Positions 18,576 to 64,000 of a stretch of 64,000 bases of DNA are shown piece after piece. Within the stretch, counting starts at the first letter, position 1, and every line of letters starts with the position of its first letter. The translations under genes and the position numbers were made by a program. The notes below the pieces were generated by a model, which was given only the letters and a program-made list of their open reading frames with translations, was not told the origin of the DNA and searched no databases. Source of the DNA: Candidatus Micrarchaeota archaeon (GTDB lineage Archaea > Iainarchaeota > Iainarchaeia > JAADDC01). Location: assembly GCA_027046625.1 (NCBI GenBank), contig JALTXX010000004.1:1698-65697 (forward strand), in the 5' to 3' direction.

Positions 18576-18584
18576 TGTATCACC

Positions 18585-45326: not shown

Positions 45327-45458
45327 TGGGGCCGCGGGGATTTGAACCCCGGACCTTCGGGTCTCCCCCTATTTAGACCCGAAGCTCTTCATCGGCTGTC
45401 CTCCGCGCTCCAGACAAACGTCTGGAGCCCGACGCGCTGCCAACTGCGCCACGGCCCC
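45327..45458 (-). tRNA. tRNA-Trp (anticodon CCA) with an approximately 59-nt intron
   Basis: Exons: GGGGCCGTGGCGCAGTTGGCAGCGCGTCGGGCTCCAG...ACCCGAAGGTCCGGGGTTCAAATCCCCGCGGCCCC. Intron segment GUCUGGAGCGCG is complementary to the anticodon arm (bulge-helix-bulge context). Confidence 0.8.
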
Positions 45459-47965: not shown

Positions 47966-50236
47966 GTGTTGGGGTGTAATAAAGTTTATGTGGTTGTGGA
48001 AGTAGAAGGTGGCAAAAGGATACTGAGAATCGATGCCAGAGACTGGCCCACGGGAGGTTCTGTTGTAGACTATCCCGAGAGCATGTTTAGGGTTGTTTCT
48101 GAACTCATGAAGGAAGATGCAGATATTGTAATTGTAACCGACGTTTATGATCATGTATACGGGGAGGACGCCGTAAATATCTTGAAGGAGATTGCAAAAG
48201 TGGGGAAAATCTTCCAATCAGAAGGATACTGGAGCTTCTCTGTAGTAGAGAAATTAGGTAGAGGGTGTGCTAATCCCCTAAAAAATGAACAGGTATGGGT
48301 TGTAAGGGTAACACACGATCTTTGGTTAAGCGATCCTGTAAGGGCTTATCTAGAGGTGCTGAGAAAAATAAAGGGTTACACATCCTTGGATGGTTATCCA
48401 GAGGCTATAAGAAGATGTATAGAGCAATACGTATCCATCCTCAAGAAGATAAAGACTCACATGGAGTCTACAAGGATTATCTCAAAGGTAAGAGAGTACA
48501 TAGCAACCCAGCGACGGGCCCCCGATAGAGGATTCTACAGAACCATCCTTCCCGTCCAAATAAAACCCGCCTTTCTTGGATCGGGTATTATAAGTGGTTT
48601 GGGAGAAGATCTCGAGCTCGTAGACTCCTACACCCTAGAGGGAGATGTGGAAGTATCCATATACAGGGATCCAAACAGTGTAGAGTATTTATACTATCTT
48701 CAAGCACCTGAATTTTCTCTGTCTCCACAACTTTACATGGTATTAGAGAAGGCAAAACAGATGGCAGCAGAGTACACCCCTTCAAGTACCCTCCTAACCT
48801 CCAGATCCTTTGCAAGGCGACAGTTTGAGGAAATGTATATGCAAACCATCATAGATGTGTCCAGACAGATGGGTATTCCTCTAGAAGAGGATGATCTAAG
48901 GCTTCTTTCCTCTATTCTTGCTAGATATACCGTGGGTTATGGTATTCTGGAGCTGTTCTTCTTGGACAGAAACCTAACAGACATATATGTGGATGCACCA
49001 CTAAGTACCAGGCCGGTATATGTACTCCACTCAAGGTACGGCCAGTGTAGAACAAACATTGTATACTCAGAGACGGAAGCAAAGAACTTCGTATCCAAGC
49101 TTAGATCTATGAGCGGAAGACCCTTTGACGAGGCCCATCCTGTTTTGGATTATGATATTCCAGATTTGCACGTAAGAGTAGCCGTTATAGGGCCACCTCT
49201 TTCCCCTGATGGCATTGCCTTCGCATTTAGACTCCACAGACCAACACCTTGGACGCTGCCCCTGTTCCTTGATGTAAATATGTTGACTCCTCTAGCCGCT
49301 GGTCTCTTATCCTTTCTTGTAGACGCCCAATCAACATTGCTCATCTCTGGAAGCAGAGGCTCTGGTAAGACATCTCTCATGACGTCCCTTATACTTGAGA
49401 TACCTCAGAACCAACGCATTCTCGTACAGGAAGACACATTGGAGATTCCCGTGGAAGCTATAAGAAAGCACGGGTATCATATCCAACGCCTAAAGACTAG
49501 GAGTCCTATCGGAGGAGGAGCCGCAGGGGAGGTTCCTCCAGAGGATGCCCTTAGAACAGCCCTCAGGTTGGGAGATTCCGCCATTGTGATAGGAGAGGTG
49601 AGATCTAGAGAGGCGAAGGTACTATACGAAGCCATGAGGGTGGGGGCAGCAGGCAGTACAGTGATGGGAACTATTCACGGTGATTCCGCATATTCTGTGT
49701 GGGATAGAGTGGTCAACGACTTGGGTGTACCCACCACCTCCTTCAAGGCAACGGATGTGGTGGTAGTGAACGCTCCTATTAGATTTGGGGGGTCCCTTAA
49801 AAGGGTAAGAAGAACCATCTCCATAACAGAAGTATTGAAGCATTGGAAGGCAGAACCTTTAGAGGAGGGTGGTTTCCTTGATATTATGAGGTATTCCGCA
49901 GATAGGGATAGATTGGAACTGCTGGAGGATAACGTAAGAAACTCCGAGCTGCTTATGAAGATCGGAAGGCTTAGAGGAATGAGTCCAGAAATGATATGGG
50001 AAGAAATTAGGGCAAGGGGGGAAGAAAAGGCCCTTGTTGCAAGGTTGAGTAGAGAATACAAGGTAAGGGAACTTATGGAAGCGGAGCACTATTCAATTAT
50101 ACATAACAAGTTCCTCCTCCTAAAGGAGCAACAACTGGAAGAGCATGGAGAAGTAGACTACCCCTCCCTCCTCAAGGATCTTGAAAATTGGATAAAGAAC
50201 ACGCTTGTGAGGGAGATCCTTGCCAGGAGAGGCTGA
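47966..50236 (+). CDS. FlaI/GspE-family secretion ATPase with an N-terminal extension of about 200 aa
   Basis: Walker A LISGSRGSGKTS, Asp/His boxes, Walker B region VIGEVRSREA. At 756 aa it is longer than typical FlaI proteins (about 550 aa). Confidence 0.85.
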   Translation: MLGCNKVYVVVEVEGGKRILRIDARDWPTGGSVVDYPESMFRVVSELMKEDADIVIVTDVYDHVYGEDAVNILKEIAKVGKIFQSEGYWSFSVVEKLGRGCANPLKNEQVWVVRVTHDLWLSDPVRAYLEVLRKIKGYTSLDGYPEAIRRCIEQYVSILKKIKTHMESTRIISKVREYIATQRRAPDRGFYRTILPVQIKPAFLGSGIISGLGEDLELVDSYTLEGDVEVSIYRDPNSVEYLYYLQAPEFSLSPQLYMVLEKAKQMAAEYTPSSTLLTSRSFARRQFEEMYMQTIIDVSRQMGIPLEEDDLRLLSSILARYTVGYGILELFFLDRNLTDIYVDAPLSTRPVYVLHSRYGQCRTNIVYSETEAKNFVSKLRSMSGRPFDEAHPVLDYDIPDLHVRVAVIGPPLSPDGIAFAFRLHRPTPWTLPLFLDVNMLTPLAAGLLSFLVDAQSTLLISGSRGSGKTSLMTSLILEIPQNQRILVQEDTLEIPVEAIRKHGYHIQRLKTRSPIGGGAAGEVPPEDALRTALRLGDSAIVIGEVRSREAKVLYEAMRVGAAGSTVMGTIHGDSAYSVWDRVVNDLGVPTTSFKATDVVVVNAPIRFGGSLKRVRRTISITEVLKHWKAEPLEEGGFLDIMRYSADRDRLELLEDNVRNSELLMKIGRLRGMSPEMIWEEIRARGEEKALVARLSREYKVRELMEAEHYSIIHNKFLLLKEQQLEEHGEVDYPSLLKDLENWIKNTLVREILARRG

Positions 50237-52241
50237 ACTGTATAAAAAGCTGTGCACATCAAAGGCCCCAGTTCCCGTCGAGGTAAGGGAGGCTGTAGAG
50301 TTTCTTGAGTGGAAGATTGACCCAGAATGTGTCGGCGGGGCTGCCAGAAAGGGAGCTATCTACGGTTTTCTAGCAGGGCTGGTATTTGTTGTCCTCTACA
50401 TACTTACGTACGCCATGAATTTCGGCTTCGGAGCATTTTTAGAAGCTCTTGTATTTGATATAGCCACGTTAAACCCGTTTACACTGCTTGTATTATTCCT
50501 TCCTATCATTTTAGCATTCATAGCCTACTTTATGCTGCTCTACTATCCCGTCATGAAAAAGGAAGAGGAAATGGGCCAGATTCTCCTTGAACTACCAGAG
50601 GTCATGGGATATGTTGTTCTTTCCCTTAAACTATCTCCCAACCTGGAGAGGGCCCTGTCTTTTGCGGCAGATAACTCTGAGGGAGTTCTAGCAAACCGTA
50701 TAAAGAAGCTTATATGGGAGATGCGCATGGGTGTGTATGCCTCTGCGGAGGAGGCCCTAGATCACCTTATTTACAGGGTAGGAGCCAACATACCGGAACT
50801 AAAACACGCCCTCATGCAAATCAGAGCCTCAACCCTCGAACCCGATGATGCAAGGAGAAACTTCAGGCTGGACAGAGCACTGGATGATATTATAACCTCC
50901 GTAAGGAATAGGTTAGAAGAAAGGGCTTCAAGCATGTACATGCCGTCCATTCAGCTCTTCTACCTTGGTGTATTTTTACCTCTGCTTCTCTTTGTCATCC
51001 TCCCCGTAGCCTCCGCCTTCTCGGATCTACCGCTTGCTACCCTGCCCTCCTTGGTAGCCATTTATATAATAGGGTTGCCCCTCATTATATACATCTTTTC
51101 GCGCTCTATTCTCTCAAAGAGGCCAAACATATACAAACCGCCGGTTCCCCCAAAGGAGAAGGATAGAAAGCATCTATACATAGCGATAGCAGCCGCCATT
51201 GTAGTACTATCAATCTCCTACATCCTACATCTTCAGCTAGATATCACATACGAAAGGGCTGAAGCACTATATTGTGGATATGAAGGATGCCTAAGGGAAA
51301 AATATGGGTTTACTAGCTGGGAAGATGCAAAATACATAGATGAGGTTTCTCAGATACTATCCTCGTATGATACCACCCCATACTGGCTTATATTTGGCGC
51401 GTTGCTCGCTCCCGTGGTTGCAATATCCATATACTTTTTCCTTTCAGAGCGAGCACGCGCCAAAAGAAAGGAAGAGATCATGGAGATGGAAGGAGAGTTT
51501 AAGGACGTCGTATATCTTATGGCTTCCAAAATGGGAGAAGGCAAACCGCTAGAGGGGGCTCTTGAGAGCGTTATAAATCTCATGCCTAATTCCAAGCTTG
51601 TAAGGGAGGTTTTTTCCAAGATACTCTATAACATAAGGGTGATGGGTCTTTCCCTGGGAGATGCTGTATTTCATCCTCTCTTTGGAGCATTAAGGCATAT
51701 TCCTAGTCACTTTCTCAAAAAAGCAACATCTACTGTGGTTAAGTCTGTAGAGCTGGGAACCGAACTAGCTGCAAGAGCACTCATAGCTTTTTCTGACCAG
51801 CTAAGAAAGGAGGAAGAGATTATAAGGATGTTAAGATCTAAAATGGGAGAGATTTATATTATGATTACCTCTATGGTGCTCTTCGTTTCCCCCATCGTGT
51901 TGGGTATTACAGTAGCCCTTCAACAGGTAATTGTAAGCTCTCTCTACTCTGTTGAGGCACCCGAAGTACCCGAAGAGTATGTTTATCAGCTGAACATATC
52001 TGTTCCAAAAATCAATGAGTTGGAAGGTAAGGTGGCGTCCCCGGCGGAATTCCTCACCATAGCGTTCCTTTATAACATCATACTAACCTTTCTCCTCACC
52101 ATCTACTCCGTAAAACTCTACGAAGGGGAGGATCCCATAGCTGTAAGAAGAGCTTTAGCAAGAAATCTTCTCATCTCTTCCCTTCTGTTCATTCTGTCTA
52201 CGTGGGTGTCCCTTTCTATCATAAGAGGTGTAATAGTATGA
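50220..52241 (+). CDS. FlaJ/TadC-like polytopic membrane platform protein (two T2SS-F-like halves)
   Basis: 673 aa with two cytoplasmic helical domains, each followed by transmembrane triplets. Overlaps the ATPase gene by 17 nt. Confidence 0.75.
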   Translation: MPGEAELYKKLCTSKAPVPVEVREAVEFLEWKIDPECVGGAARKGAIYGFLAGLVFVVLYILTYAMNFGFGAFLEALVFDIATLNPFTLLVLFLPIILAFIAYFMLLYYPVMKKEEEMGQILLELPEVMGYVVLSLKLSPNLERALSFAADNSEGVLANRIKKLIWEMRMGVYASAEEALDHLIYRVGANIPELKHALMQIRASTLEPDDARRNFRLDRALDDIITSVRNRLEERASSMYMPSIQLFYLGVFLPLLLFVILPVASAFSDLPLATLPSLVAIYIIGLPLIIYIFSRSILSKRPNIYKPPVPPKEKDRKHLYIAIAAAIVVLSISYILHLQLDITYERAEALYCGYEGCLREKYGFTSWEDAKYIDEVSQILSSYDTTPYWLIFGALLAPVVAISIYFFLSERARAKRKEEIMEMEGEFKDVVYLMASKMGEGKPLEGALESVINLMPNSKLVREVFSKILYNIRVMGLSLGDAVFHPLFGALRHIPSHFLKKATSTVVKSVELGTELAARALIAFSDQLRKEEEIIRMLRSKMGEIYIMITSMVLFVSPIVLGITVALQQVIVSSLYSVEAPEVPEEYVYQLNISVPKINELEGKVASPAEFLTIAFLYNIILTFLLTIYSVKLYEGEDPIAVRRALARNLLISSLLFILSTWVSLSIIRGVIV

Positions 52242-52606
52242 AAGGCCAAGCGTACACACTGTTCAACTACCTCGCATGGGCTGCCTTTTTTGTAGCTGCA
52301 ATAGGGGTTGTGTACATCGTATTCAACAACTCCATAAGACAGGCAACTCCTGTTCCCATCGAAACGATAAACGATGTCCTCCGCAGCGCGGCAGAGCAAA
52401 GAAAGGTAGGTATAGACACCCCTGTATGTGCAGATCTCTACGTTAGCGGTGAAATAACCATTACTAAGGATATTGTGGGAAGATATGGTCTAAATTTGGA
52501 CCTAAAGTGTGAAAACGTAACTTGCAGAGAAGAGGAGGATGGTATAACCATATGGGGCAGTGGGAGATTATGTGTAGAAGGTGGAGTTCTCGTGTGGAAG
52601 CGTTAA
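52238..52606 (+). CDS. Pilin-like protein with class III signal peptide
   Basis: MKG|QAYTLFNYLAWAAFFVAAIGVVYIVF. The ATG overlaps the flaJ-like stop (ATGA). Confidence 0.55.
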   Translation: MKGQAYTLFNYLAWAAFFVAAIGVVYIVFNNSIRQATPVPIETINDVLRSAAEQRKVGIDTPVCADLYVSGEITITKDIVGRYGLNLDLKCENVTCREEEDGITIWGSGRLCVEGGVLVWKR

Positions 52607-52636
52607 TATTTTATATCTCCATCATCTAATAGTGGC

Positions 52637-53050
52637 ATGAAGGGCCAAGCCTTTGAGGTATTCAGGCTTCTCATTGCAGCAGTAATTGGGGGGGCTATCC
52701 TTATGGTATTGTTAGGCATACTTCAGGGCATCATATCACCTACTACAGATCCTCAAACTGCCACAGCCCAGCTTGTAAAGAAAAACTCCAAGTTTGGTGG
52801 TATAGGAACCACAGACGTGATAACTTTCAGAAAGGACATGTACATAGATCTGAGAGCAGTCGCAAGGGAGGCATACCTTGACACGGAATGTGTAAAAGTT
52901 GGAGATGTATTAGAGGGTTTTGAAAAAAAAGATGATAAAGTAATAAGATACGCAGGGACCGGTACAAGGGCAAAGATAATGGTGGAATGCACCGAAAGTG
53001 AAAATAAAAAATGTCCCATCGAGTGTACGGTTTCCATCATCCGTCCTTAA
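52637..53050 (+). CDS. Pilin-like protein with class III signal peptide
   Basis: MKG|QAFEVFRLLIAAVIGGAILMVLLGIL (Glu at +4, as in type IV pilins). Confidence 0.6.
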   Translation: MKGQAFEVFRLLIAAVIGGAILMVLLGILQGIISPTTDPQTATAQLVKKNSKFGGIGTTDVITFRKDMYIDLRAVAREAYLDTECVKVGDVLEGFEKKDDKVIRYAGTGTRAKIMVECTESENKKCPIECTVSIIRP

Positions 53051-53190
53051 AAGGGATGAACGTTTAATATTAGCATGAGAGCAGGTGGAGACTGGAATGT
53101 TATATACCTCCTTGTGGTAGCTATTGTGGCAGCCCTGCTTATTTTCGGGGTGATAAAGCCATCCATGGCTAAAGGGTACAGGGTGGTCAA

Positions 53191-53694
53191 ATGAGGGGTG
53201 TGGAGGCACCCTTCCAATTGGTAGTATCTGTTGTAACCATCCTGTTTGTGCTATACCTTTCCTACATGGTTATATCCAATGCCATACGGGAGGATTGTTC
53301 CAAGAAGATAGATATCCAGCTTAGGAACATTGCAACCACCGTTTCCACAGCTGTGTATTCATCTCCTCCCACTAAACTCATGGAAAGGTTCGACTTTAGG
53401 TGTGGGGGGATGGTAGGGGACTACTATGTTAGTGTTAAGGGTTCTTCCAACGAAACCGAATGTCTTAGAGTGTGCGGATATTCATATAGTGGGCAATGTG
53501 TATATCTTATCCTTGAGGTAAGGAGGGGAGAGGAGGTTCTAAATAGATCCTATGCCTGTATAGAGGGAGCGGTACCCTCCCACAACATAACAATAAATGG
53601 CGGTAAAGATAAAGTAAAGGTGTCTCCACCCTATGGGAGTGTAGAAATAGAAAAAACAGAGGATGGGATTACCTTGCGGTGGAACAGAAGGTGA
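53191..53694 (+). CDS. Pilin-like protein (class III-like signal)
   Basis: MRG|VEAPFQLVVSVVTILFVLYLSYMV, 167 aa. Confidence 0.5.
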   Translation: MRGVEAPFQLVVSVVTILFVLYLSYMVISNAIREDCSKKIDIQLRNIATTVSTAVYSSPPTKLMERFDFRCGGMVGDYYVSVKGSSNETECLRVCGYSYSGQCVYLILEVRRGEEVLNRSYACIEGAVPSHNITINGGKDKVKVSPPYGSVEIEKTEDGITLRWNRR

Positions 53695-53698
53695 AAGA

Positions 53699-55875: not shown

Positions 55876-55906
55876 CCTTTAACACGTTCTCCTCCTATAA
55901 ATACTT

Positions 55907-56305: not shown

Positions 56306-59300
56306 GAAGCATGGCCTACGGAAACATAATGTGTGAAGTGGTAGAGGATGGAGATATTTCAAAGCTCATAATCAACACTGTATACAGAGAGGACGGTATA
56401 CATCCCTTCTCCTCCATTACTACAAATTCCCAGGAGGGAGAACAGATAGATGTGGATTCCATGGTATTGGTAGATGGTGAGGGAAGGGCATATGATGTGG
56501 AAGTGGGCAAGGAGGCAGCCCCCGTGGAGAATACCATCCTGGGAGGAAGTTACTATGAGGGCCCCTTTGTGGTGACCTATCTTCTTTCTGACACCCTTCG
56601 CATCGCGAAGGTCGGTGTCCACTCCTACGGAGAGGGTGCCCTTCTTAGGGAGCGTTTTGAAGGCACTTATGGGATATCCCTCTATGAAACACTAAAAAAC
56701 ATCGCAAAGAACATCAAGGAGTTCGTATTCTTTGTGAATGAACAAACACCTCCCATAAATAACGTTATAAACGCCGAGAACTTTTCTGCAAGTGTTGTAT
56801 GTGCATCATCTTCCTGTAAAAAAGAGCTGTACTCATTGCTTACTAAGTATATGAATCTGGGGGCGTCCTCCGAGATGGCCGTGGAGTTTCTAAACTTTAA
56901 GTTTGTGATAGGTCCTGCAAAGAGGGCAGCTGAAGGTGCATTAGCCTTAGGGAAGATTTCAGTTCCCGAATCCAAGTTTGTAGAAGGGTTGAAGAACAAG
57001 CTTAGAGCTCTGAACTTTTTTGGGAGAAAACAGTTAGAGGAGGCAAAAAACCTGTTCAAGGGACTATCTGACGGTGAGAAAGAGGCCATAAAAGGTATTT
57101 TAGATTCGCCTTCTGAATGGTACGCGCACACCGGAAAGCTTTCCCTTCAAGGAAAGACAGCAGCCTACATATTTACAAAGGAGCTCAAGAACGTAAAGTT
57201 CGAGAAGCTTATCGTAGAGGAGGGAGGAAAGAAGTACCTACTTGTAAACAAATTGGAGGAAGCTATAAAGAATATGGAGGAGTTCGGAAAGAAGGTAGGC
57301 GATATACAGAGTTTGACGGGATCTGAAAGACTAAAGGAGATGAAGCAGCTGGCAGATAGTGTAAAGAAAACGCTTGAACAGATAAAAAACAATGTAAAAA
57401 ATAAGAATATAGAAAAAATACCGTTAAAGGAGCTTGCAAGCCAGCTCAAAGGAAAGGTAAAACTAGAGGATCTAGAGAAGATAAAACAACTGAGAGAAAT
57501 GCTGGATGACTACAGCAGCATTGTAAGAAACTTGGAAGACAAGGTACCCCTTGTTCTATCTCAAGCGGATCTCATAGGCGATGAGATGGAGAGGATGCTA
57601 TCAAAAGAATCTGGGAGCAGAACAGGCAGGGCTCTTGTTGCCAAGGGCGTTGCCACACCCCTTATGTTCTATCTTACAAGAACCACCCCCCTCCCCCCTG
57701 ATGTCACCTTTGAGGGTATTAACTCTAACCTCTCAAAAATCTTTCCCGTAAAGAGGGCGTACCAGATACCAAGCAGCTGGACTACCATGGATTTGAAACC
57801 TTCTAACATGGAAGGGGTATTTATGGATGTCCTCATAGGGCATGGAAGCGATCCTGGAAACATATTTAGGAGCATCCTTACCATCTTACCAATAGGGCTC
57901 ATCGACAGGGTTATAACGAGTGTTACAGGCTCTAATCCCCTCGATATTGTAGATATGATACCCGATCCTGAGGATGAAGAACTATACAGGATGAAAGATG
58001 CTGTGGTAATGCTGGCAACCACCAACAACTGCCAAACATGTTACATAGAGGACGGGAAAAGCTTCTCAGGTCCAAAGCTCTTCCTCTCTCTAACAGAGAA
58101 CCAGAGAGAAAAATCTACCCTTATAACCTTCTTTAGAAGGATGGACCTTATCGCAGATGGAAAGAGGCTCATTGATACGAGTAACAGCGAAAACTTATGC
58201 TCCCAGAAATGTTTTCTTGTAAGAAATATGACAGAGGCCTCCGGCAAGGAACCATTTGCTGCCCTTTTCTTGCACGGATTACTCATAGGATATGTGGTAC
58301 CGTCCTTTGGCGGTTTAACGCTCACCCTTATCATATCTGCGGCTACCTCTCCCGTCTTTGCAGATTGTTTCACATGCACAGATACCACATTTGGATACTA
58401 TCTTCATGTATTGAGTTTCTCGCCTCCCAAAGAAGAGGAACCCATGCCTGTAGACAAGGTAAAGGCCGCGGTAGAACAATTGGGTGTAGATATTAAGCAG
58501 GTTGAGGAGTGGATTTCCAGTTACAAGAAAGGGGAAATAGAGAAGCAAAGATCTATGTTGTATTCCACACTCACCAACGCCAAAGGTAAGATGGAGGGAC
58601 TTGTTATCAGTATATGGACAAAACCGTCCTTTTCTATGCCCACAAGATTCAAAGGTGGGGTAGAACTCTCCACAGAGGATGGAGAAAAGCTTCGTATCGA
58701 TGAAACCACGGTAACATCCAAGGATGGTTCTGTTACAGCTCCCGGGGCCGGCATATCAACGGTAGAAACGGAAATACCAGGTATGATCGTGCCTACAAAC
58801 CTCTCCCGAGTAAATCTATCCTCTATTTCCCTGGAGGTAACATCCCAGGAGAATTATATTATTGGGGAGGCGCTTCAGCAGTGTTTAAGCGTTGAGCCTG
58901 GTAGAATAAAGCTCGTAAAAGCAGAAAAGGGAAGTATAAAGGTAGAAGAGGATGGTTTGTACGTTACAAGTGATGATTATGTAGGGCCTGCAAGCAAGAT
59001 AACAGTGGAGAATGGAATTGTTAGGGCAACAGTAACTGACATAACACCAGAAGGAATAACACAGAAGGACATAGAGCTCGGAAAGCTTATTTCAATAGTA
59101 TTTGAGAGGGTATCTGTTGTTTCAAAGGGTGACAGTGCCTATGTATGGAACAAAGGCGACTCCGTTCCCCAAGAAAGTGTGGAAGATGCTGATTTGGAAA
59201 CAGATGGAGAAAGCGTCTCCCTCAGTATAACTCCATCTTCAGATGCAACGAGGGAGGAGGTAAAGACCATAGATAAGGGAGAGGAGATGTTAGATGATAT

Positions 59301-59832
59301 TCAGGCTATCGATGCATCAAAAACCACCGTAGCAATAAGGGAAGGAAAGGACGGAGAACAGTACTTAACTATCTACAACAAGGAAGATGGTTCTGTTACC
59401 AACGAGAAGATTGTGGACATGAAATCCGAAAATGGAGAGCTCGTTGTTACAACCGTGGATGAGAAAGGTAATGAAAAAGTACACAGAATAAGACTTGAAG
59501 TAACATCGGATGGTACACCTACCCTCAAGGTGGACGGAAAGGATGGAGGTATTGTCAAGACAGTTCAGTCCAAGGAGGGCTTCATGTGGTACAACCCAAA
59601 AACGGGTGAGTGGAATTTTGTAAATGGTGTACTTGCACCCCTGTCTGAGGCATTTAAGGAAGGTATGAAGATCGCCTTTGAAGGAGGTAAGGCGGTGGCA
59701 AAACCATCAGGCAACATCATTGTAAATGCTCCGCCCTCTCAGGGCATGTCTCTCCCATCCCTTGGAGAGTGGATACTGCCCCTACTAGCAATAGTTATCC
59801 TACTAATGCTCTATCAAGGATCACGACAGTGA
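56269..59832 (+). CDS. Large secreted surface protein (about 1187 aa) with C-terminal transmembrane anchor. Possible adhesin or S-layer-like
   Basis: Signal-peptide-like MDHRTLVWILLIGSMAYG|N, a long T/V/E/K/G-rich beta-type body, and C-terminal SLGEWILPLLAIVILLMLYQGSRQ. The ORF-track start at 56179 is probably an upstream extension. Confidence 0.65.
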   Translation: MDHRTLVWILLIGSMAYGNIMCEVVEDGDISKLIINTVYREDGIHPFSSITTNSQEGEQIDVDSMVLVDGEGRAYDVEVGKEAAPVENTILGGSYYEGPFVVTYLLSDTLRIAKVGVHSYGEGALLRERFEGTYGISLYETLKNIAKNIKEFVFFVNEQTPPINNVINAENFSASVVCASSSCKKELYSLLTKYMNLGASSEMAVEFLNFKFVIGPAKRAAEGALALGKISVPESKFVEGLKNKLRALNFFGRKQLEEAKNLFKGLSDGEKEAIKGILDSPSEWYAHTGKLSLQGKTAAYIFTKELKNVKFEKLIVEEGGKKYLLVNKLEEAIKNMEEFGKKVGDIQSLTGSERLKEMKQLADSVKKTLEQIKNNVKNKNIEKIPLKELASQLKGKVKLEDLEKIKQLREMLDDYSSIVRNLEDKVPLVLSQADLIGDEMERMLSKESGSRTGRALVAKGVATPLMFYLTRTTPLPPDVTFEGINSNLSKIFPVKRAYQIPSSWTTMDLKPSNMEGVFMDVLIGHGSDPGNIFRSILTILPIGLIDRVITSVTGSNPLDIVDMIPDPEDEELYRMKDAVVMLATTNNCQTCYIEDGKSFSGPKLFLSLTENQREKSTLITFFRRMDLIADGKRLIDTSNSENLCSQKCFLVRNMTEASGKEPFAALFLHGLLIGYVVPSFGGLTLTLIISAATSPVFADCFTCTDTTFGYYLHVLSFSPPKEEEPMPVDKVKAAVEQLGVDIKQVEEWISSYKKGEIEKQRSMLYSTLTNAKGKMEGLVISIWTKPSFSMPTRFKGGVELSTEDGEKLRIDETTVTSKDGSVTAPGAGISTVETEIPGMIVPTNLSRVNLSSISLEVTSQENYIIGEALQQCLSVEPGRIKLVKAEKGSIKVEEDGLYVTSDDYVGPASKITVENGIVRATVTDITPEGITQKDIELGKLISIVFERVSVVSKGDSAYVWNKGDSVPQESVEDADLETDGESVSLSITPSSDATREEVKTIDKGEEMLDDIQAIDASKTTVAIREGKDGEQYLTIYNKEDGSVTNEKIVDMKSENGELVVTTVDEKGNEKVHRIRLEVTSDGTPTLKVDGKDGGIVKTVQSKEGFMWYNPKTGEWNFVNGVLAPLSEAFKEGMKIAFEGGKAVAKPSGNIIVNAPPSQGMSLPSLGEWILPLLAIVILLMLYQGSRQ

Positions 59833-60181
59833 CTGCAGGTCTCTCCTCTTCTATCTCCTTCACTCGTCCGAAGGAGACAAACTTTACCTTTACCCTTGCA
59901 CGCTGTACCTCCACCTCATCTATATGATCAATATTTACCCTTGAGGGGGCTATTCTTACCTCCAACACCTCTCCCACAATACCCTCTGTGTGGGTATCCA
60001 ACTCCTCATATACATCCTCCGTAAGGAATACTCTGTCTCCCTTCTCTAGGAGAGATGCCGTTCTTACGTTCACGAAGGAGAGAAACTCTAACACTATCAC
60101 TCCTTTTCTTGTAAGCCTCTCAAGACTTTCCTTTTTTATTCCAGTAAAGGCCAGCATATTCTCACCCATACATGGACACAT
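59795..60181 (-). CDS. Hypothetical protein (about 120 aa)
   Basis: Intact ORF downstream of the PAC2-like gene with no motif. Confidence 0.35.
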   Translation of the reverse strand: MCPCMGENMLAFTGIKKESLERLTRKGVIVLEFLSFVNVRTASLLEKGDRVFLTEDVYEELDTHTEGIVGEVLEVRIAPSRVNIDHIDEVEVQRARVKVKFVSFGRVKEIEEERPAVTVVILDRALVG

Positions 60182-60806
60182 CCAAATGATCTTCCTCGGG
60201 GGGAGACAGTACGAGGTCGTCTACATCTACCTCTATACCGGTAATCCTTCCGACCTCAGAGACAAGGCGAGGAGCGGCACTGATATCCTTCCTTCCCGAT
60301 GTAGGTCCCAGCAGCAGCAATACAGGTACGTTTCTTTCTCTGCCGAGAAGGAGTAGTGAAGCTGTTACACCTGTAACCACTCCATTTTCTATGGGTCTAA
60401 GATGACCTGCAAACTTTCTGGCAGATTCATTAGATGCTATCACATAAACATCCTCCGAGGAGGGGGATAACACACCGCTTAAAACTACCACTAGCTTGGC
60501 CCCATCTTTCCATGCCTTTTCCATAATGGTATGGGCTACCTCCCAGGATAGATCCTCGGGGATGGGAACATCGGAGAGAATGGCATGTACATTGGAGCGA
60601 GAAAACACGTTTATAGGATAGTATATTCTACCCTTCTTCACCCTTCCTATGGGAGGTAGTCTACGCGAGAAGAGGTACCCTGTCCATTTGAAGCCTCCTC
60701 TTTCTACGTAATATCTTAGGGATATGTTTCCCACCAGTCCCAATCCAGGAAATGAGATGAGAAGTATGCCATCACGAAAGCTTGCTCCAGTTCTTAGCTG
60801 TACCAT
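60162..60806 (-). CDS. PAC2-family (proteasome assembly chaperone-like) protein
   Basis: N-terminal ILLISFPGLGLVGNISLRYYVE and C-terminal ASLLLLGRERNVPVLLLLGPTSG resemble PAC2/PbaB-family signatures. 214 aa. Confidence 0.55.
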   Translation of the reverse strand: MVQLRTGASFRDGILLISFPGLGLVGNISLRYYVERGGFKWTGYLFSRRLPPIGRVKKGRIYYPINVFSRSNVHAILSDVPIPEDLSWEVAHTIMEKAWKDGAKLVVVLSGVLSPSSEDVYVIASNESARKFAGHLRPIENGVVTGVTASLLLLGRERNVPVLLLLGPTSGRKDISAAPRLVSEVGRITGIEVDVDDLVLSPPEEDHLDVSMYG

Positions 60807-61552
60807 ACTATCACCATATACACACCCATAGCTACAAGGCTTCCCACAAGGATATAGACGGGTATGTTTTTAGGCTTCCTCTCCAAAGCTCCTACAAAGA
60901 AACCACTAATAGATACTAACAGAAGCAAATACACCAACACCACCTCTCCAATCGACCCTCCCATCCTCTCTACTAACTTCGTTACAAACCCTAGCACAAT
61001 GGGAACCAAAAGGAAAGAGGAAAGAAGGATGGAATATCTCTGAAGGGATAGGGTAGATAACTTTTCCCTTTCCGTCTCGCCTACCACGTAAAGCTCCTCT
61101 GAAAGGTTTTTCAGAAGTTGAGGAGCAGTACCTGCTCTAAAGGCTTCTATAATACTTGTTATAGCCCTTTCTATGAGAGAAGAATCCCATCTCTCGTATA
61201 GTGTCCTCAAAGCCCTAAGAGGTGGGATACCCTTCTCTACCATCCTCTCTACAGATTCAAGCTCCTTTGAGAGCTCTCCGAATCCTTTTCTTCCCAAGGA
61301 TATAAGCGCTTTTGGAGTAATAGAAGGGTACGTAGCTGCTGTGTGCACCCATCTGGGGAGTTCTTCCTCTATACGTTGCTTCTTCCTTTCATAGAAGTAC
61401 ACTATAGAGATAAAGGACAATATAGGAACTAGAATAGCATAAAACCCGAACAAAAGATACGTAGAAGCAGTTAGCAGTATAATTACTGCAACAACATTCC
61501 TTTCATCCCACCCAAGAGTATCCAGCATCTTCATACTACCACTTCCTAGCAA
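60794..61552 (-). CDS. TadC/TadB-like T2SS-F-domain membrane protein
   Basis: 252 aa with an N-terminal transmembrane helix, a cytoplasmic helical domain, and two C-terminal transmembrane helices. Overlaps neighbours by 13 to 17 nt. Confidence 0.6.
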   Translation of the reverse strand: MLGSGSMKMLDTLGWDERNVVAVIILLTASTYLLFGFYAILVPILSFISIVYFYERKKQRIEEELPRWVHTAATYPSITPKALISLGRKGFGELSKELESVERMVEKGIPPLRALRTLYERWDSSLIERAITSIIEAFRAGTAPQLLKNLSEELYVVGETEREKLSTLSLQRYSILLSSFLLVPIVLGFVTKLVERMGGSIGEVVLVYLLLLVSISGFFVGALERKPKNIPVYILVGSLVAMGVYMVIVWYS

Positions 61553-62300
61553 TGTATACCAACATCACCACCGTGGCCATGGGGAGCACGATATAAAGGG
61601 TAAAATAAAGTATTCTCACATCCTGGGGCGTACCAAAAACGATAGGAAGTATGTGGGTATAGATGATTAGTATAGAGGGAACAAGAGCTGTTAATGCAAT
61701 AAACATAAGCGTATAAAGTGATAGTTTAGAGCTAAATTCTCTTATCTCAAGCTTTTTAGTCATTAAAAGGGAGTCTGCGTATCTCTCGAGTGCTTCCCAC
61801 CCTGTACCTCCCTCTATCACTTCCGATAGCATTTCTAGGGTCTTTCTAACACTATCAGACGTGTATGTAGAGGCTTCTCCTTCCAAGGCCCTTTTTAGAG
61901 GCAGCCCTCCTTTATGTAGGGAGAGGATTCTCTTCATGCTGTTTTCTATGTATTTTCTTCCCTTAGATGCTATTTCCATCCCCCTTATAGGATCAATGCC
62001 AGACCTTACGAGCGTGGAAAGGGATTTTAGGAAGAAGGGAAGCTCCCACTCTGCTACTCTGCCTCTAATATGGGAAAGAAGGATGGGCAGGTAAAGGGAT
62101 ATGCTAAATATGGATAGGGACAGCATAATCGCAAGGATAGGATCTACGAACACAAGAAGGAGGGGAAGAATGGAGAGAATAAAAGCATAGCCTAGATAGT
62201 CTTCCGGTGAAATAGAAATATCTGCGTTTCTTAGGTGTCTTCCTATTCTTCTTTTCATATCCTCGCTGAAGAGTGCTCCTATTCTCCACATCTCCAACAT
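61536..62300 (-). CDS. TadB/TadC-like T2SS-F-domain membrane protein
   Basis: 254 aa with the same topology as its neighbour. This split arrangement is the bacterial Tad pattern. Confidence 0.6.
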   Translation of the reverse strand: MLEMWRIGALFSEDMKRRIGRHLRNADISISPEDYLGYAFILSILPLLLVFVDPILAIMLSLSIFSISLYLPILLSHIRGRVAEWELPFFLKSLSTLVRSGIDPIRGMEIASKGRKYIENSMKRILSLHKGGLPLKRALEGEASTYTSDSVRKTLEMLSEVIEGGTGWEALERYADSLLMTKKLEIREFSSKLSLYTLMFIALTALVPSILIIYTHILPIVFGTPQDVRILYFTLYIVLPMATVVMLVYIARKW

Positions 62301-63769
62301 GTATAACGCCTCGCAAAAGTCTCAAGATCGTAAACGGGATTGTTTTTGAGGAATGTTACTCTCTCTTCAACATCGTCAAGGGACTCATTGGATACAAGCT
62401 CTACCACCCTTCTTACAATCCTTCCACCTTCTCCCCACCTTCTTACAACCACAACCACATCTATAGAGTCGAGATCTTCCTTTCTTACGCCCATACTTAC
62501 AAGCCTCGAAAGTACCTCCTTTACGGATCTTCCATGCATGGTAGTGTAGCTGCCCCTCCCCTGACCCGCAAGAACGGTATCCATATAGGCCTCTGCCTCC
62601 TCATCCTTTCTTATCTCTCCCACAATAACCCTATCTGGTCTCATACGAAGGGTATCCCTTATAAGATCCTTCATGCTAACACCAGAAACCACCATCCTGA
62701 CAAAATGGGGGTGTGGAATGTTTATCTCCGGCACCTCCTCCACCGCAATAACCCTTTCATCTAGGGGAACAAATCCCATAAGGGCATTGAGAAGTGTTGT
62801 CTTGCCGGATCCTGTATTGCCTGCAATAAGTATATTTAGCTCCCTCTCTATGGCAGCCCATAGAGTGGCTGCCTGCCCATAGGAGATGGATCCGCTCTCT
62901 ATAAGGGAAGATATGGTTAGGGGAGATTCTCTAAACCTTCTTACTGTAATAGAATGCACATTAGAGATAGGCGGTATAACTGCATGTATACGCGAGCCGT
63001 CCTCCAATATTGCATGCATTCTAGGTTCTTTTATGCTAATAAGCCTTCCCATCTTTTCTCCTGCTCTGTTTACAAGGTTCAGGAAGTACTCCTCCGTCCA
63101 TATGTAGATGTTTGTTTCTCTCCATCCCTTTCCTCTTTCATACACCATTACCGGTCTTTTTAGACCTACCACAACAATCTCCTCTATATTGTCCCCTTTT
63201 ATAAGGTTTAGAGGCCCCAGAGGGCTTAATGTGATATCCACTATCCACTCTACCCTTTCCTTAGTCCTCTCTGGTATGGAGAGCTCCTCTGAGAGGTCAT
63301 CTAATATTTCTTCGATGGAGTATTCTCCCTTCGTTCTCTGATAAATGTCTATTACTTTCCTTGCCACCCTTGCTTCCCAGGGAAGAATAGGCATCTCACT
63401 TACAATTCCATTATCCGTCAAAACCCATCCAATTTCATTTCCCACCTCCTCCATGTCTTTTTCCTCCAAAATAACTGTTATCTCGTCTCCACCCCTCTCC
63501 TTGCATATGGGATAACCTCTTTCTACACACATATCACACTTATACAGCCCATCCCTCCAAAACAGAGCATTATATGGACATAAAACAACATCATCGGGGT
63601 TTCCACCTTCTGCGCACAGAACCCCCTTTACACACTCAAATATCCCATCACTTCTGGCACAGGGAGCTTCAGGTGGATCACAGTGGATGCATCTTATCAC
63701 TCTTTCATCATGATAGGGGCATACCCTCCTGATGATATTCTTCCCCTCTTCTGTAGCCTCTATCCTCAT
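62279..63769 (-). CDS. VirB11/TadA/FlaI-family secretion ATPase with N-terminal cysteine-rich domain
   Basis: Walker A IAGNTGSGKTT, Asp/His boxes, Walker B RVIVGEIR. The N-terminal 100 aa carry 10 Cys (CPYHDERVIRCIHCDPPEAPC...CVKGVLC...CPYN...CDMCVERGYPIC). Confidence 0.8.
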   Translation of the reverse strand: MRIEATEEGKNIIRRVCPYHDERVIRCIHCDPPEAPCARSDGIFECVKGVLCAEGGNPDDVVLCPYNALFWRDGLYKCDMCVERGYPICKERGGDEITVILEEKDMEEVGNEIGWVLTDNGIVSEMPILPWEARVARKVIDIYQRTKGEYSIEEILDDLSEELSIPERTKERVEWIVDITLSPLGPLNLIKGDNIEEIVVVGLKRPVMVYERGKGWRETNIYIWTEEYFLNLVNRAGEKMGRLISIKEPRMHAILEDGSRIHAVIPPISNVHSITVRRFRESPLTISSLIESGSISYGQAATLWAAIERELNILIAGNTGSGKTTLLNALMGFVPLDERVIAVEEVPEINIPHPHFVRMVVSGVSMKDLIRDTLRMRPDRVIVGEIRKDEEAEAYMDTVLAGQGRGSYTTMHGRSVKEVLSRLVSMGVRKEDLDSIDVVVVVRRWGEGGRIVRRVVELVSNESLDDVEERVTFLKNNPVYDLETFARRYTCWRCGE

Positions 63770-64000
63770 TGGATGGCCACCTCGTCCCCCACCTCAACAG
63801 GACATTCTCTTCTTCCATCCATCTCTATGATAATATCACCCTCAAGAGTTACTACACTCCATGGCTCTACCACCCTTTTACATGTAACTTTTCCCTCCTT
63901 CACACAAAGAAATAGGATGGGGAACCTGCAGAAAAACGTATGAAATGAGGTTTTTCCCTTTGTTGGAAATAGGAGACATCCGTCATAGGAGAATCTAAAC
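63766..64000 (-). CDS. Partial CDS (C-terminal 77 aa of an upstream gene in the Tad-like operon)
   Basis: Manual translation gives ...EGKVTCKRVVEPWSVVTLEGDIIIEMDGRRECPVEVGDEVAIQ* with its TGA overlapping the ATG of the ATPase gene (ATGA). No stop before the window edge. Confidence 0.4.
   Translation of the reverse strand, partial: FRFSYDGCLLFPTKGKTSFHTFFCRFPILFLCVKEGKVTCKRVVEPWSVVTLEGDIIIEMDGRRECPVEVGDEVAIQ

What the first reader, a model, noticed from the sequence alone, without database searches (positions are those of the whole stretch)
47966..64000. A roughly 16-kb cell-surface appendage island combining two filament machineries, an E/K-rich protein and a PAC2-like protein
Read as one unit, the interval encodes an Ups/Aap-like pilus module, a KE-repeat protein (55015..55875), a small membrane protein, the giant anchored surface protein, a PAC2-like chaperone-family protein and a second Tad-like module. 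Two different type IV filament ATPases flanking one giant surface protein is not a textbook arrangement. It could be a composite adhesion or biofilm system. The PAC2-like gene would then be an unexpected accessory, since PAC2 proteins are usually tied to the proteasome.
Basis: inference. Interest (0 to 1): 0.7.

Follow-up and report, generated by a model that had tools for sequence, protein, structure and literature searches.

The report
DPANN pilus locus beside PbaA operon
The interval is not one composite appendage island: it holds a type IV pilus-like gene cluster with a giant surface protein that is shared among DPANN archaea, and next to it a separate second pilus-motor operon that ends in the already known PbaA/PF0014 (PAC2 + DUF473) gene pair.

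Summary
Three relevant genes were missed: a mini archaeosortase-family gene (47565-47954, -), DUF473 (59795-60169, -) and DUF192 just past the window end.

The block is not a mobile island. GC and codon usage match the rest of the window. In relatives the gene order also extends into housekeeping genes on both sides.

I read it as two units.

Unit A is archaeosortase-like, a 756-aa ATPase, a two-domain TadC, six prepilin-like genes, a K/E-rich protein, a 4-TM protein and the giant protein. Its core recurs in distant DPANN genomes (ATPase 51-53% identical) whose flanking genes differ. There the K/E and 4-TM genes match by position and composition only. This unit is probably functional.

Unit B is DUF192, a 496-aa ATPase, TadB, TadC, PAC2 and DUF473. 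I could show it next to unit A only in a lineage where gene order is conserved throughout.

The PAC2 gene is not an orphan accessory. It is PbaA-type, keeps a C-terminal HbYX motif, and sits beside DUF473. I infer that DUF473 is the published PbaA partner PF0014. Thermococcus has the same pair with no pilus genes nearby.

The giant protein has no recognisable domains. The "Ups/Aap-like" label has no support.

The parts
47565..47954 (-). Mini exosortase/archaeosortase-family membrane protein (129 aa), divergent from ATPase1. Part of unit A.
   Evidence: It matches TIGR04178 at 37.2 bits against a cutoff of 23. Cys42, Arg82 and His95 are invariant across five orthologues, including the Pfam Exosortase_EpsH protein of L018. 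It is syntenic in L012, L013 and L014, and lies nearby in L015 and L018. It fits no named subfamily: ArtE scores 10.9 bits against a cutoff of 95.
47966..50236 (+). ATPase1, a 756-aa (annotated 748-aa) FlaI/TadA/GspE2-type secretion ATPase with extra N-terminal (about 1-200) and C-terminal helical (about 660-755) regions. Motor of unit A.
   Evidence: T2SSE at 71 bits. The best PDB sequence match is 2OAP, E 1.5e-33. The AF2 model has pLDDT 81, and Foldseek ranks GspE2, then FlaI, then CpaF. The 120 best homologues listed are 46-74% identical, most about 740-810 aa long, and the named ones are DPANN MAGs.
50220..52241 (+). TadC1, a 673-aa FlaJ/TadC-like platform protein with two T2SSF domains and about 9 TM segments.
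   Evidence: PF00482 matches residues 434-564 and 140-262. Orthologues follow ATPase1 in L012-L015 and L018.
52238..55046 (+). Six prepilin-like genes, tightly packed or overlapping: pil1 52238-52606, pil2 52637-53050, pil3 53191-53694, pil4 53699-54181, pil5 54166-54543, pil6 54528-55046.
   Evidence: N-termini are MKG|QAY, MKG|QAF, MRG|VEA and MAKG|IAA followed by a hydrophobic helix. Orthologues in L015 and L018 show a clear [KR]G|Q motif. One-to-one orthologues in the same order occur in L012, L013 and L014. pil2, pil3, pil5 and pil6 are also detected in L015 and L018. No Pfam pilin model matches.
55015..55875 (-). K/E-rich soluble protein (286 aa), convergent with pil6 and divergent from the 4-TM gene.
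   Evidence: It is 38% K+E, has no TM segment and no domain hit. Homologues sit at the same position in L009, L012 and L014, and the N-terminus is similar in L003. In L015 and L018 highly charged proteins occupy the same position, but similarity is not significant (BLASTP E 8.9 against L015; no phmmer hit in either).
55907..56305 (+). 4-TM membrane protein (132 aa) whose 3' end overlaps the start of the giant gene.
   Evidence: TM segments are. Homologues lie immediately upstream of the giant gene in L003, L009 and L012, and in L014 by profile search. In L015 and L018 a positional counterpart shares a C-terminal (F)PW motif, but the BLASTP match to L018 is only E 0.056.
56269..59832 (+). Giant surface protein. 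It is 1187 aa from the ATG at 56269; the ORF opens at 56179.
   Evidence: Architecture: a Sec-type signal peptide; a helix-rich N-terminal half that includes a K/E/L-rich 230-470 segment; a conserved internal hydrophobic stretch (about 662-700) flanked by paired Cys; a beta-rich C-terminal third; then a conserved GxxLP motif and a C-terminal TM helix.

Only one non-identical homologue turned up in the 5.8-billion-protein search (33% identity). Others were found in L009, L010, L012, L014 and L017. The N-terminus matches the 1468- and 1533-aa proteins of L015 and L018 (hmmsearch E 8e-9 and 7e-8).

There are no Pfam, NCBIfam or PDB matches. The AF2 model failed (pLDDT 30).
59795..60169 (-). DUF473 protein (124 aa), the inferred counterpart of PF0014, the partner of PbaA. 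Last gene of unit B.
   Evidence: PF04322 at 76 bits. It is a small archaeal family: 21 clusters at 50% identity in 1.8 billion representatives, including Thermococcus and Methanocaldococcus. In T. gammatolerans it lies directly after a PAC2 gene. The PbaA/PF0014 pair is described in PMC6992696.
60162..60806 (-). PAC2-family protein of the PbaA type (214 aa) with a C-terminal HbYX motif (MYG).
   Evidence: PF09754 at 89.6 bits and TIGR00161 at 86 bits. PDB matches: PbaA 3WZ2 at E 7.6e-16, against PbaB 3VR0 at 5.6e-4. The C-terminus is M/I-Y-G in L003, L009 and L010 and T-Y-G in L017.
60794..62300 (-). TadC2 (60794-61552) and TadB2 (61536-62300), two single-domain T2SSF platform proteins of unit B.
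   Evidence: PF00482 at 28.4 and 39.7 bits. Orthologues occur in L010 and L017.
62279..63769 (-). ATPase2, a 496-aa FlaI/TadA/GspE2-type ATPase with a Cys-rich N-terminal domain. It is preceded by DUF192 just outside the window.
   Evidence: T2SSE at 119 bits. The best PDB match is 2OAP, E 1.4e-44. Ten N-terminal Cys are conserved with the L010 orthologue. DUF192 overlaps its start in L001 and L017, and is also present in L010.

Best explanation
The interval holds two separate units that lie side by side in a thermophilic DPANN lineage. Relatives are labelled Iainarchaeota, Diapherotrites or Micrarchaeota.

**Unit A (47.6-59.8 kb)** is a type IV pilus-like cluster found across DPANN genomes. 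Its parts are a mini archaeosortase-family protein, a 756-aa ATPase, a two-domain TadC/FlaJ platform, six single-copy prepilin-like proteins, a K/E-rich cytoplasmic protein, a small 4-TM protein and a giant membrane-anchored surface protein.

Inferred mechanism for unit A:
- A prepilin peptidase encoded elsewhere cleaves the prepilins after [KR]G.
- The ATPase and platform assemble them into a short pilus or pseudopilus-like fibre made of several different subunits.
- The giant protein is exported by Sec.
- It is held at the cell surface by its C-terminal helix. The neighbouring archaeosortase may process it at the conserved GxxLP motif.
- It works with the fibre in attachment to surfaces or to host cells.

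**Unit B (59.8-64.1 kb)** is the operon DUF192, ATPase2, TadB2, TadC2, PbaA, DUF473. Its first four genes form a pilin-less motor/platform module. I infer that this module assembles the PilA-type pilins encoded elsewhere, at 10825-11262 and 29810-30676. Its last two genes are the archaeal PbaA/PF0014 pair. In this compact genome the pair has probably become co-transcribed with the pilus module without belonging to it.

**Shown:** gene content, domain assignments, synteny, the lack of a compositional shift, and the PbaA affinity of the PAC2 gene.
**Inferred:** the DUF473 = PF0014 equation, filament assembly, the function of the giant protein, archaeosortase processing, and the use of pilins in trans.
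For: **Domains**
- Assignments for all genes.
- ATPase folds and PDB matches.
- Class III-like signals and one-to-one pilin orthology.

**Unit A beyond the collinear lineage**
- L018 (ATPase1 51% identical) and L015 (53%) have different flanking genes.
- Both still carry an exosortase-family gene, ATPase1, TadC1 and seven pilin-like genes.
- Both then carry one or two highly charged proteins on the opposite strand, a small polytopic membrane protein and a 1468- or 1533-aa protein.
- The N-terminus of that large protein matches the giant profile at E 8e-9 and 7e-8.
- Cys, Arg and His are invariant in the archaeosortase-like protein.
- GxxLP plus a TM helix is conserved at the giant C-terminus in four lineages.

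**Unit B**
- The operon is conserved in L001, L010 and L017.
- Pilin-less ATPase/TadC modules that act on PilA pilins in trans are documented.
- PilA-type pilins are present in the window.

**PbaA/PF0014**
- The PAC2 gene matches PbaA more closely than PbaB.
- The HbYX motif is conserved.
- T. gammatolerans has PAC2 followed by DUF473 with no T2SSE or T2SSF gene nearby.
- Published work reports co-transcription and a 10:10 complex.

**Gene packing**
- The window is 93% coding.
- 27 of 43 same-strand neighbours overlap or lie within 10 nt. Overlap alone therefore does not show shared function.
Against: - No prepilin peptidase lies in the window.
- No Pfam pilin model matches pil1-6.
- pil4 and pil5 lack a clear [KR]G site.
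- The K/E protein and the 4-TM protein have only positional, not significant sequence, counterparts in L015 and L018.
- I could not read what lies downstream of the giant gene in L015 and L018. Linkage of unit B to unit A in distant lineages is therefore neither shown nor excluded.
- PbaA-DUF473 overlaps TadC2 in at least five species-level genomes. Some functional coupling cannot be ruled out.
- L014 has PAC2 directly after the giant gene, with no DUF473 between them.
- The giant protein has no fold assignment.
- That PF0014 is a DUF473 protein rests on the Thermococcus orthologous context and the published phyletic pattern. I did not compare the PF0014 sequence directly.
Confidence: 0.6

Rival explanations
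1. One composite appendage system. Both ATPase modules, the giant protein and PAC2 work together, for example as assembly and retraction motors or as two filaments anchored on one adhesin.
For: Unit B lies tail to tail with the giant gene in every recovered relative of the lineage: L003, L009, L010, L014 (PAC2 only) and L017.
Against: - Housekeeping genes on both sides are just as collinear in these genomes. Adjacency there is therefore uninformative.
- The two units are convergent, separate transcription units.
- ATPase1 and ATPase2 are only about 27% identical.
- ATPase/TadC-only modules are known to serve pilins in trans.
- PbaA-DUF473 stands alone in Thermococcus.
Confidence: 0.15
2. A horizontally acquired genomic island, integrated near tRNA-Trp.
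For: tRNA-Trp lies about 2 kb upstream, at 45327-45458. The giant protein is almost an orphan.
Against: - There is no GC, GC3 or codon-usage shift.
- hisS and map separate the tRNA from the block.
- No integrase or mobile-element genes are present.
- The block and its flanks are collinear in relatives whose GC ranges from 41% to 60%.
Confidence: 0.03
3. The giant protein is simply the S-layer or cell-envelope protein of these archaea. Its position next to pilus genes reflects shared surface biogenesis, including archaeosortase anchoring, rather than a role in the pilus.
For: - It has a signal peptide, a large ectodomain and a C-terminal TM helix preceded by a conserved short motif.
- An archaeosortase-family gene is in the cluster.
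- S-layer-like proteins are recurrent members of archaeal T4P loci.
Against: - It has only 5 N-glycosylation sequons in 1187 aa.
- The N-terminal half is helix-rich and there is a conserved internal hydrophobic segment.
- No S-layer domain matches.
- It diverges very fast: 25-37% identity where ATPase1 is 64-71%.
Confidence: 0.2
4. PbaA/DUF473 is a true accessory of the unit B pilus machine, for example a cage-like chaperone or quality-control device for pilins or platform subunits.
For: - PAC2 overlaps the TadC2 stop and DUF473 overlaps PAC2.
- The six-gene operon is conserved in L001, L010 and L017, and partly in L003 and L009.
- The physiological role of PbaA/PF0014 is unknown and reported as proteasome-independent.
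Against: - The pair occurs without any T2SSE or T2SSF neighbour in T. gammatolerans.
- Distant PAC2 homologues sit among housekeeping genes.
- Gene overlap is the norm in this genome.
- The HbYX motif points to the proteasome, and a PAN-like ATPase is encoded in the window.
Confidence: 0.1

Closest known systems
Type IV pili 'dark-matter' loci of DPANN genomes (Makarova, Wolf & Koonin 2019, PMC6393860, Fig. 2A) and the archaeal T4P census (Makarova, Koonin & Albers 2016, PMC4858521)
   Same: They contain a FlaI-like ATPase, TadC, several unannotated proteins with signal peptides read as divergent pilins, and associated surface proteins. Cytoplasmic coiled-coil or Zn-ribbon proteins and S-layer-like or adhesin proteins recur in archaeal T4P loci.
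   Different: - I did not place ATPase1 in their clade scheme.
- I did not find the mini archaeosortase gene, the 4-TM protein or this giant protein family mentioned in the parts of those papers I read.
Pilin-less ATPase/TadC modules of Euryarchaeota (Haloferax volcanii PilB3 locus; two ATPases in one Aciduliprofundum boonei locus)
   Same: Unit B has an ATPase and two TadB/TadC-like genes but no pilin gene. PilA-type pilins (Pilin_N) are encoded elsewhere in the window.
   Different: - ATPase2 has a Cys-rich N-terminal domain.
- The operon begins with DUF192 and ends with PbaA-DUF473.
- Clade membership was not tested.
Epd pili of Methanococcus maripaludis (clade 1 of Makarova 2016)
   Same: Both have many minor-pilin-like genes in the locus and large putative adhesins. 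From my own knowledge, EppA-type prepilins have Gln at +1, as pil1, pil2 and the L015/L018 orthologues do.
   Different: - Unit A has one fused TadC rather than two TadC genes.
- It has no DUF2341 adhesin, no EppA and no FleN gene in the cluster.
- No phylogeny was done.
PbaA/PF0014 complex of Pyrococcus furiosus (Yagi-Utsumi et al. 2020, PMC6992696; PbaA structure 3WZ2)
   Same: The PAC2 protein is closest to PbaA. It has a C-terminal HbYX-like motif and is followed by a small co-directional partner gene of about 120-130 aa. That paper reports the pair as co-transcribed in Pyrococcus, Archaeoglobus, Methanococcus and Methanocaldococcus.
   Different: Here the pair sits at the end of a Tad-like operon in a DPANN lineage. 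The protein is shorter than P. furiosus PbaA (214 aa; the 3WZ2 chain is 245 residues). Complex formation was not tested. The equation of PF0014 with DUF473 is inferred from the Thermococcus context.
Archaeosortase A / PGF-CTERM anchoring of the Haloferax volcanii S-layer glycoprotein
   Same: An exosortase/archaeosortase-family membrane protein with conserved Cys, Arg and His lies near a large secreted protein. That protein ends in a short conserved motif plus a TM helix.
   Different: - The enzyme is only 129 aa and fits none of the Art or Xrt subfamily models.
- The motif (GxxLP) is not a described CTERM signal.
- The basic tail is weak or absent.
- Processing is purely hypothetical.

Membership tests
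Archaeal type IV pilus / Tad-like (TFF) machinery, unit A | Secretion ATPase of the FlaI/TadA/GspE2 (T2SSE) family | tested here: met
   PF00437 at 71 bits. 2OAP at E 1.5e-33. Foldseek top hits are GspE2, FlaI and CpaF.
Archaeal type IV pilus / Tad-like (TFF) machinery, unit A | Polytopic platform protein with T2SSF domains (FlaJ/TadC) | tested here: met
   Two PF00482 matches in the 673-aa protein. About 9 TM segments.
Archaeal type IV pilus / Tad-like (TFF) machinery, unit A | Prepilins with a class III signal peptide (short charged leader, [KR]G cleavage site, hydrophobic helix) | tested here: met
   This was judged by inspection. It is clear in 4 of the 6 window proteins and in their L015 and L018 orthologues, which show [KR]G|Q. 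No Pfam pilin profile matched.
Archaeal type IV pilus / Tad-like (TFF) machinery, unit A | Prepilin peptidase (PibD/EppA/FlaK, Peptidase_A24) | tested here: inconclusive
   I recognised none among the window ORFs I read or scanned. It may be encoded elsewhere in the genome.
Archaeal type IV pilus / Tad-like (TFF) machinery, unit A | A filament is actually assembled | not testable with these tools
   Needs microscopy or proteomics.
   - No Ups- or Aap-specific model was available.
- The best NCBIfam hits are generic (FlaI, TadA and BasE) and far below their cutoffs.
- The homologues are DPANN proteins.
- No phylogeny against reference sequences was possible.
Archaellum | Archaellins (PF01917) plus FlaF/G/H/X accessory genes | tested here: not met
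   No such Pfam hits in the block. The FlaI equivalog model scores 137 and 181 bits against a cutoff of 550.
PbaA/PF0014 pair (PAC2 + DUF473) | PAC2-family protein closer to PbaA than to PbaB | tested here: met
   PF09754 at 89.6 bits. 3WZ2 at E 7.6e-16, against 3VR0 at 5.6e-4.
PbaA/PF0014 pair (PAC2 + DUF473) | C-terminal HbYX-type motif | tested here: met
   The protein ends in ...SMYG. Orthologues end in PMYG, PMYG, PIYG and PTYG. T. gammatolerans PbaA ends in SIYL.
PbaA/PF0014 pair (PAC2 + DUF473) | Small partner gene immediately downstream in the same transcription unit | tested here: met
   DUF473 overlaps the PAC2 stop. The same order is seen in T. gammatolerans. The PF0014 sequence itself was not compared.
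PbaA/PF0014 pair (PAC2 + DUF473) | Formation of the 10:10 tholos-like complex | not testable with these tools
   Needs biochemistry or multimer modelling.
Exosortase/archaeosortase | Signature domain with conserved Cys, Arg and His | tested here: met
   TIGR04178 at 37.2 bits against a cutoff of 23. C42, R82 and H95 are invariant.
Exosortase/archaeosortase | Membership of a named subfamily (ArtA-E, XrtA-Y) | tested here: not met
   All subfamily models score far below their cutoffs: XrtH 26.7 against 86, ArtE 10.9 against 95.
Exosortase/archaeosortase | Cognate substrates with a motif + TM + basic-tail C-terminal signal | tested here: inconclusive
   The giant protein has a conserved GxxLP motif plus a TM helix, but the basic tail is weak. 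No known CTERM model matched. It is the only such candidate in the block.
Horizontally acquired genomic island | Compositional shift, mobility genes, patchy distribution | tested here: not met
   Searches show no shift. Searches show no integrase. Searches show collinearity in relatives, including the flanks.

The most novel reading that the evidence does not exclude
The enigmatic PbaA/PF0014 (PAC2/DUF473) cage is a working part of a Tad-like pilus machine in this DPANN lineage. It could act as a chaperone or quality-control chamber for pilins or platform subunits. The six-gene operon DUF192-ATPase2-TadB2-TadC2-PbaA-DUF473 would then be the first genomic clue to the physiological role of PbaA. 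Together with the neighbouring unit A (archaeosortase, pilus, giant protein), the two machines would form one host-attachment apparatus.
Probability: 0.1. Interest if true: 0.75.

Novelty: new member of a known kind. Interest (0 to 1): 0.35.

Why it matters
**DPANN attachment.** Most cultivated DPANN archaea live attached to host cells, and how they attach is largely unknown. This analysis defines a gene cluster with a very well conserved 756-aa ATPase. The 120 best homologues listed are at least 46% identical, and the named ones are DPANN MAGs. The cluster also has six to seven orthologous pilin-like subunits, a mini archaeosortase and a fast-evolving giant surface protein. That makes it a concrete candidate for attachment studies in culturable DPANN systems.

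**Annotation.** PAC2 next to DUF473 should be read as the PbaA/PF0014 pair. Synteny within a lineage where gene order is conserved throughout should not be read as evidence of function.

**The finding as submitted.** A composite two-motor island with an odd proteasome-chaperone accessory turns out to be mostly ordinary.

Tried and rejected
- **AF2 model of the giant protein.** A two-sequence alignment gave mean pLDDT 30, which is unusable, so I ran no fold search on it.
- **Domain searches on the giant protein.** Profile and sequence searches of the whole protein and its four segments against Pfam, NCBIfam and PDB gave only coiled-coil noise.
- **Pilin-like proteins.** Pfam at E up to 10 gave nothing for the pilin-like proteins or their distant orthologues.
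- **Metagenome scans.** Scans with the giant alignment and the ATPase2 alignment found no relatives.
- **Genome scan.** A three-sequence alignment returned only three short contigs.
- **PAC2 homologue search.** The word-indexed search found only four proteins.
- **Promoter and terminator scans.** The bacterial-type scans showed no enrichment and are not applicable to archaea.
- **K/E protein homology.** I checked the K/E protein against the charged protein of L015, and BLASTP was not significant (E 8.9); phmmer found no match in L015 or L018. I therefore treat those proteins as positional analogues only.
- **Literature.** I found no paper mentioning DUF473 and nothing relevant on DUF192.
- **Rejected readings.** Archaellum: no archaellins or Fla accessory genes. 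Mobile island: no compositional or mobility signal.

Full report
**What is in the sequence**

On the + strand, 47966-55046 carries eight tightly packed or overlapping genes.
- A 756-aa T2SSE-family ATPase (PF00437, 71 bits).
- A 673-aa membrane protein with two T2SSF domains.
- Six small proteins of 122-172 aa, each starting with a hydrophobic helix.
  - Four have class III-like leaders: MKG|QAY, MKG|QAF, MRG|VEA and MAKG|IAA.

The remaining genes run as follows.
- A 286-aa protein with 38% K+E lies on the - strand at 55015-55875.
- At 55907 a 4-TM protein is followed by the giant ORF, and the two overlap.
- The giant ORF most likely starts at the ATG at 56269, giving 1187 aa. It has a Sec-type signal peptide and a C-terminal TM helix.
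- Converging on it from the - strand is the operon ATPase2 (496 aa, T2SSE 119 bits), two single-domain T2SSF genes, PAC2 (PF09754, 89.6 bits) and DUF473 (PF04322, 76 bits).

The source contigs show a DUF192 gene overlapping the ATPase2 start just beyond the window. After it come HAD, ThiI, LigT and other housekeeping genes on the other strand.

**Not an island**

- GC is flat across the borders.
- GC3 is 0.453 in the block and 0.469 in the rest.
- Codon frequencies correlate at r = 0.97. A control comparing the two halves of the rest gives 0.964.
- No integrase or mobile-element gene is present.
- The window is about 93% coding.
- 27 of 43 same-strand neighbours overlap or lie within 10 nt. 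Overlapping genes are the rule here and do not indicate shared function.

**Whose genome**

The window matches MAG contigs from hydrothermal samples (GCA_015521515.1). Relatives are labelled Candidatus Iainarchaeum, Micrarchaeota or Diapherotrites, all of them DPANN.

**Synteny in close relatives**

| Locus | ATPase1 identity | GC | Gene order recovered |
|---|---|---|---|
| L012 | 71% | 58% | hisS, map, archaeosortase-like, ATPase1, TadC1, pil1-6, K/E protein, 4-TM protein, giant, in the window's order |
| L014 | 64% | 41% | map, then the same order through to the giant gene, with PAC2 converging directly on it |
| L010 | not on the contig | 58% | DUF192, ATPase2, TadB2, TadC2, PAC2, DUF473, then the giant gene tail to tail |
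| L017 | not in the fetched stretch | not computed | eIF5A ... ParA, LSM ... ThiI, HAD, DUF192, ATPase2, TadB2, TadC2, PAC2, DUF473, then a partial 778-residue ORF converging tail to tail where the giant gene lies (identity not checked) |
| L003, L009 | not on the contig | 57-60% | the middle part of the block |

However, the collinearity runs well into housekeeping genes on both sides. Within this lineage it carries little functional information.

**Synteny in distant genomes**

Two genomes with ATPase1 only 53% (L015) and 51% (L018) identical have different flanking genes. They still show the following, in order:
- an exosortase-family gene nearby (Pfam Exosortase_EpsH in L018);
- ATPase1;
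- TadC1;
- seven pilin-like genes with clear [KR]G|Q leaders, including detectable orthologues of pil2, pil3, pil5 and pil6;
- one or two highly charged proteins on the opposite strand;
- a small polytopic membrane protein;
- a 1468- or 1533-aa protein whose N-terminus matches a profile of the giant family (E 8e-9 and 7e-8 in a 65-sequence search).

The archaeosortase-like proteins share invariant Cys, Arg and His.

Two links are weaker.
- The charged proteins are positional analogues only (BLASTP E 8.9 against L015; no phmmer hit in either genome).
- The small membrane proteins match weakly (E 0.056), though they share a C-terminal (F)PW motif.

I conclude that unit A is a real conserved DPANN cluster. 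Linkage of unit B to it is shown only where everything is collinear.

**ATPase1 family**

- The 120 best homologues listed are 46-74% identical, and most are about 740-810 aa long.
- The few that carry names are DPANN MAGs.
- The AF2 model (pLDDT 81) has a GspE2/FlaI/CpaF-like core plus an extra N-terminal region and a C-terminal helical extension.
- Both ATPases are closest to Archaeoglobus GspE2, then CpaF, then FlaI.
- Neither reaches any equivalog cutoff.
- I found no evidence for the "Ups/Aap-like" label and could not run a clade phylogeny.

**The PAC2 question**

- The PAC2 protein matches P. furiosus PbaA (3WZ2, E 7.6e-16) far better than PbaB (3VR0, E 5.6e-4).
- It ends in MYG, an HbYX-type motif. 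Its orthologues keep this as PMYG, PMYG and PIYG, with PTYG in L017.
- Yagi-Utsumi et al. 2020 (PMC6992696) showed that PbaA forms a 10:10 "tholos" complex with PF0014. They state that the two genes share a transcription unit in Pyrococcus, Archaeoglobus, Methanococcus and Methanocaldococcus.
- DUF473 is a small archaeal family, with 21 clusters at 50% identity. Its members include Thermococcus and Methanocaldococcus proteins.
- In Thermococcus gammatolerans a PAC2 gene is followed directly by DUF473, beside NucS, RadA, Cdc6 and PolD. No T2SSE or T2SSF gene is in the 12-kb stretch fetched around it.
- Distant PAC2 homologues also sit among housekeeping genes.
- The window encodes a PAN-like proteasomal ATPase.

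PAC2 plus DUF473 here is therefore the known PbaA/PF0014-type pair. What is specific to this lineage is that the pair is appended to the Tad-like operon.

**Unit B and its likely pilins**

Makarova et al. 2016 document several relevant precedents.
- ATPase/TadC modules without pilin genes that act on PilA pilins encoded elsewhere.
- Duplicated modules.
- Two ATPases in one locus in Aciduliprofundum boonei.

The window has PilA-type prepilins at 10825-11262 and 29810-30676. The second is fused to a C-type lectin domain. That these are the substrates of unit B is my inference.

**The giant protein**

- Only one non-identical homologue appeared in the 5.8-billion-protein search. Others came from the relatives' contigs.
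- The family evolves fast, at 25-37% identity, yet aligns over its full length.
- Conserved features:
  - paired Cys (CxxxxC, CxxC, CxxxC, CxxC);
  - an internal hydrophobic stretch;
  - a beta-rich C-terminal third;
  - a GxxLP motif just before the C-terminal TM helix.
- No domain or structure match was found, and AF2 failed.
- Adhesin, S-layer-like protein and archaeosortase substrate all remain open possibilities.

**Verdict**

| Item | Verdict |
|---|---|
| Observation | Largely right |
| One composite island with an odd PAC2 accessory | Only partly supported |
| Unit A | Uncharacterised member of the known class of archaeal/DPANN type IV pilus loci with associated surface proteins |
| Unit B | Ordinary pilin-less Tad-like module joined to the known PbaA/PF0014-type pair |
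| Interest | Moderate to low |

The main value is a defined candidate attachment cluster for DPANN biology and a corrected reading of PAC2.

Noticed in passing
window 29810-30676 (+): A 288-aa PilA-type prepilin (MRG|ISPIV..., weak Pilin_N match) is fused to a C-type lectin domain (PF00059, 31 bits). A lectin-bearing pilin is an obvious candidate adhesin.
   Followed up: partly
window 10825-11262 (+): A stand-alone PilA-type pilin (PF07790, 25.4 bits). It is a possible trans-encoded substrate of the pilin-less ATPase2/TadB2/TadC2 module.
   Followed up: partly
window 5186-6052 (-) and 6082-8127 (-): A KaiC-family ATPase (PF06745, 195 bits) sits next to a 681-aa coiled-coil protein. KaiC-like ATPases have been proposed as regulators of archaeal T4P.
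   Followed up: no
window 63485-63769 (-), residues 1-95 of ATPase2: This is a Cys-rich N-terminal domain with the pattern CPY...CxxCx6C...CPY...CxxCx7C. All ten Cys are conserved in the L010 orthologue. It could be an Fe-S or zinc domain on a pilus ATPase. Pfam gives only Fer4_11 at E 1.6.
   Followed up: partly
window 45327-45458 (-): tRNA-Trp (anticodon CCA) with an intron of about 60 nt. Rfam found it at 58 bits. ARAGORN missed it.
   Followed up: yes
L001 5987-6313; also L010 and L017, just beyond window base 64000: A DUF192 gene overlaps the ATPase2 start and is conserved in that position in three lineages. I know of no described link between DUF192 and pilus ATPases.
   Followed up: partly
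proteins P0104 and P0116 (ATPase1 homologues, 1273 aa): Some members of the DPANN ATPase1 family carry intein and LAGLIDADG domains (PF14528, PF14890).
   Followed up: no
L012 171-7151; L015 1-5345; L018 1-6697: Further giant proteins of 2326-3444 aa lie just upstream of unit A in relatives. They carry CarboxypepD_reg, Big_1 or SpaA, cupredoxin and amidase domains. In L015 and L018 they sit directly beside the exosortase-family gene. The window has no counterpart.
   Followed up: no
L013 5867-10835: In this relative a 672-aa ORF, an AP endonuclease and a DEAD-box helicase are inserted within the pilin operon, around pil1.
   Followed up: no
window 18042-18779 (-): This 245-aa ORF overlaps the archaeal SRP RNA gene (18587-18859, Rfam 104.6 bits). 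It is probably not a real gene.
   Followed up: no
window 23851-24816 (+): A 321-aa protein with a class III-like N-terminus (MARMRG|[11 protein letters not shown]...) and no Pfam match. It may be another pilin-like surface protein.
   Followed up: no
L014 13411-13475: In this relative PAC2 converges directly on the giant gene and no DUF473 lies between them. The PbaA partner gene has been lost or moved in that lineage.
   Followed up: no
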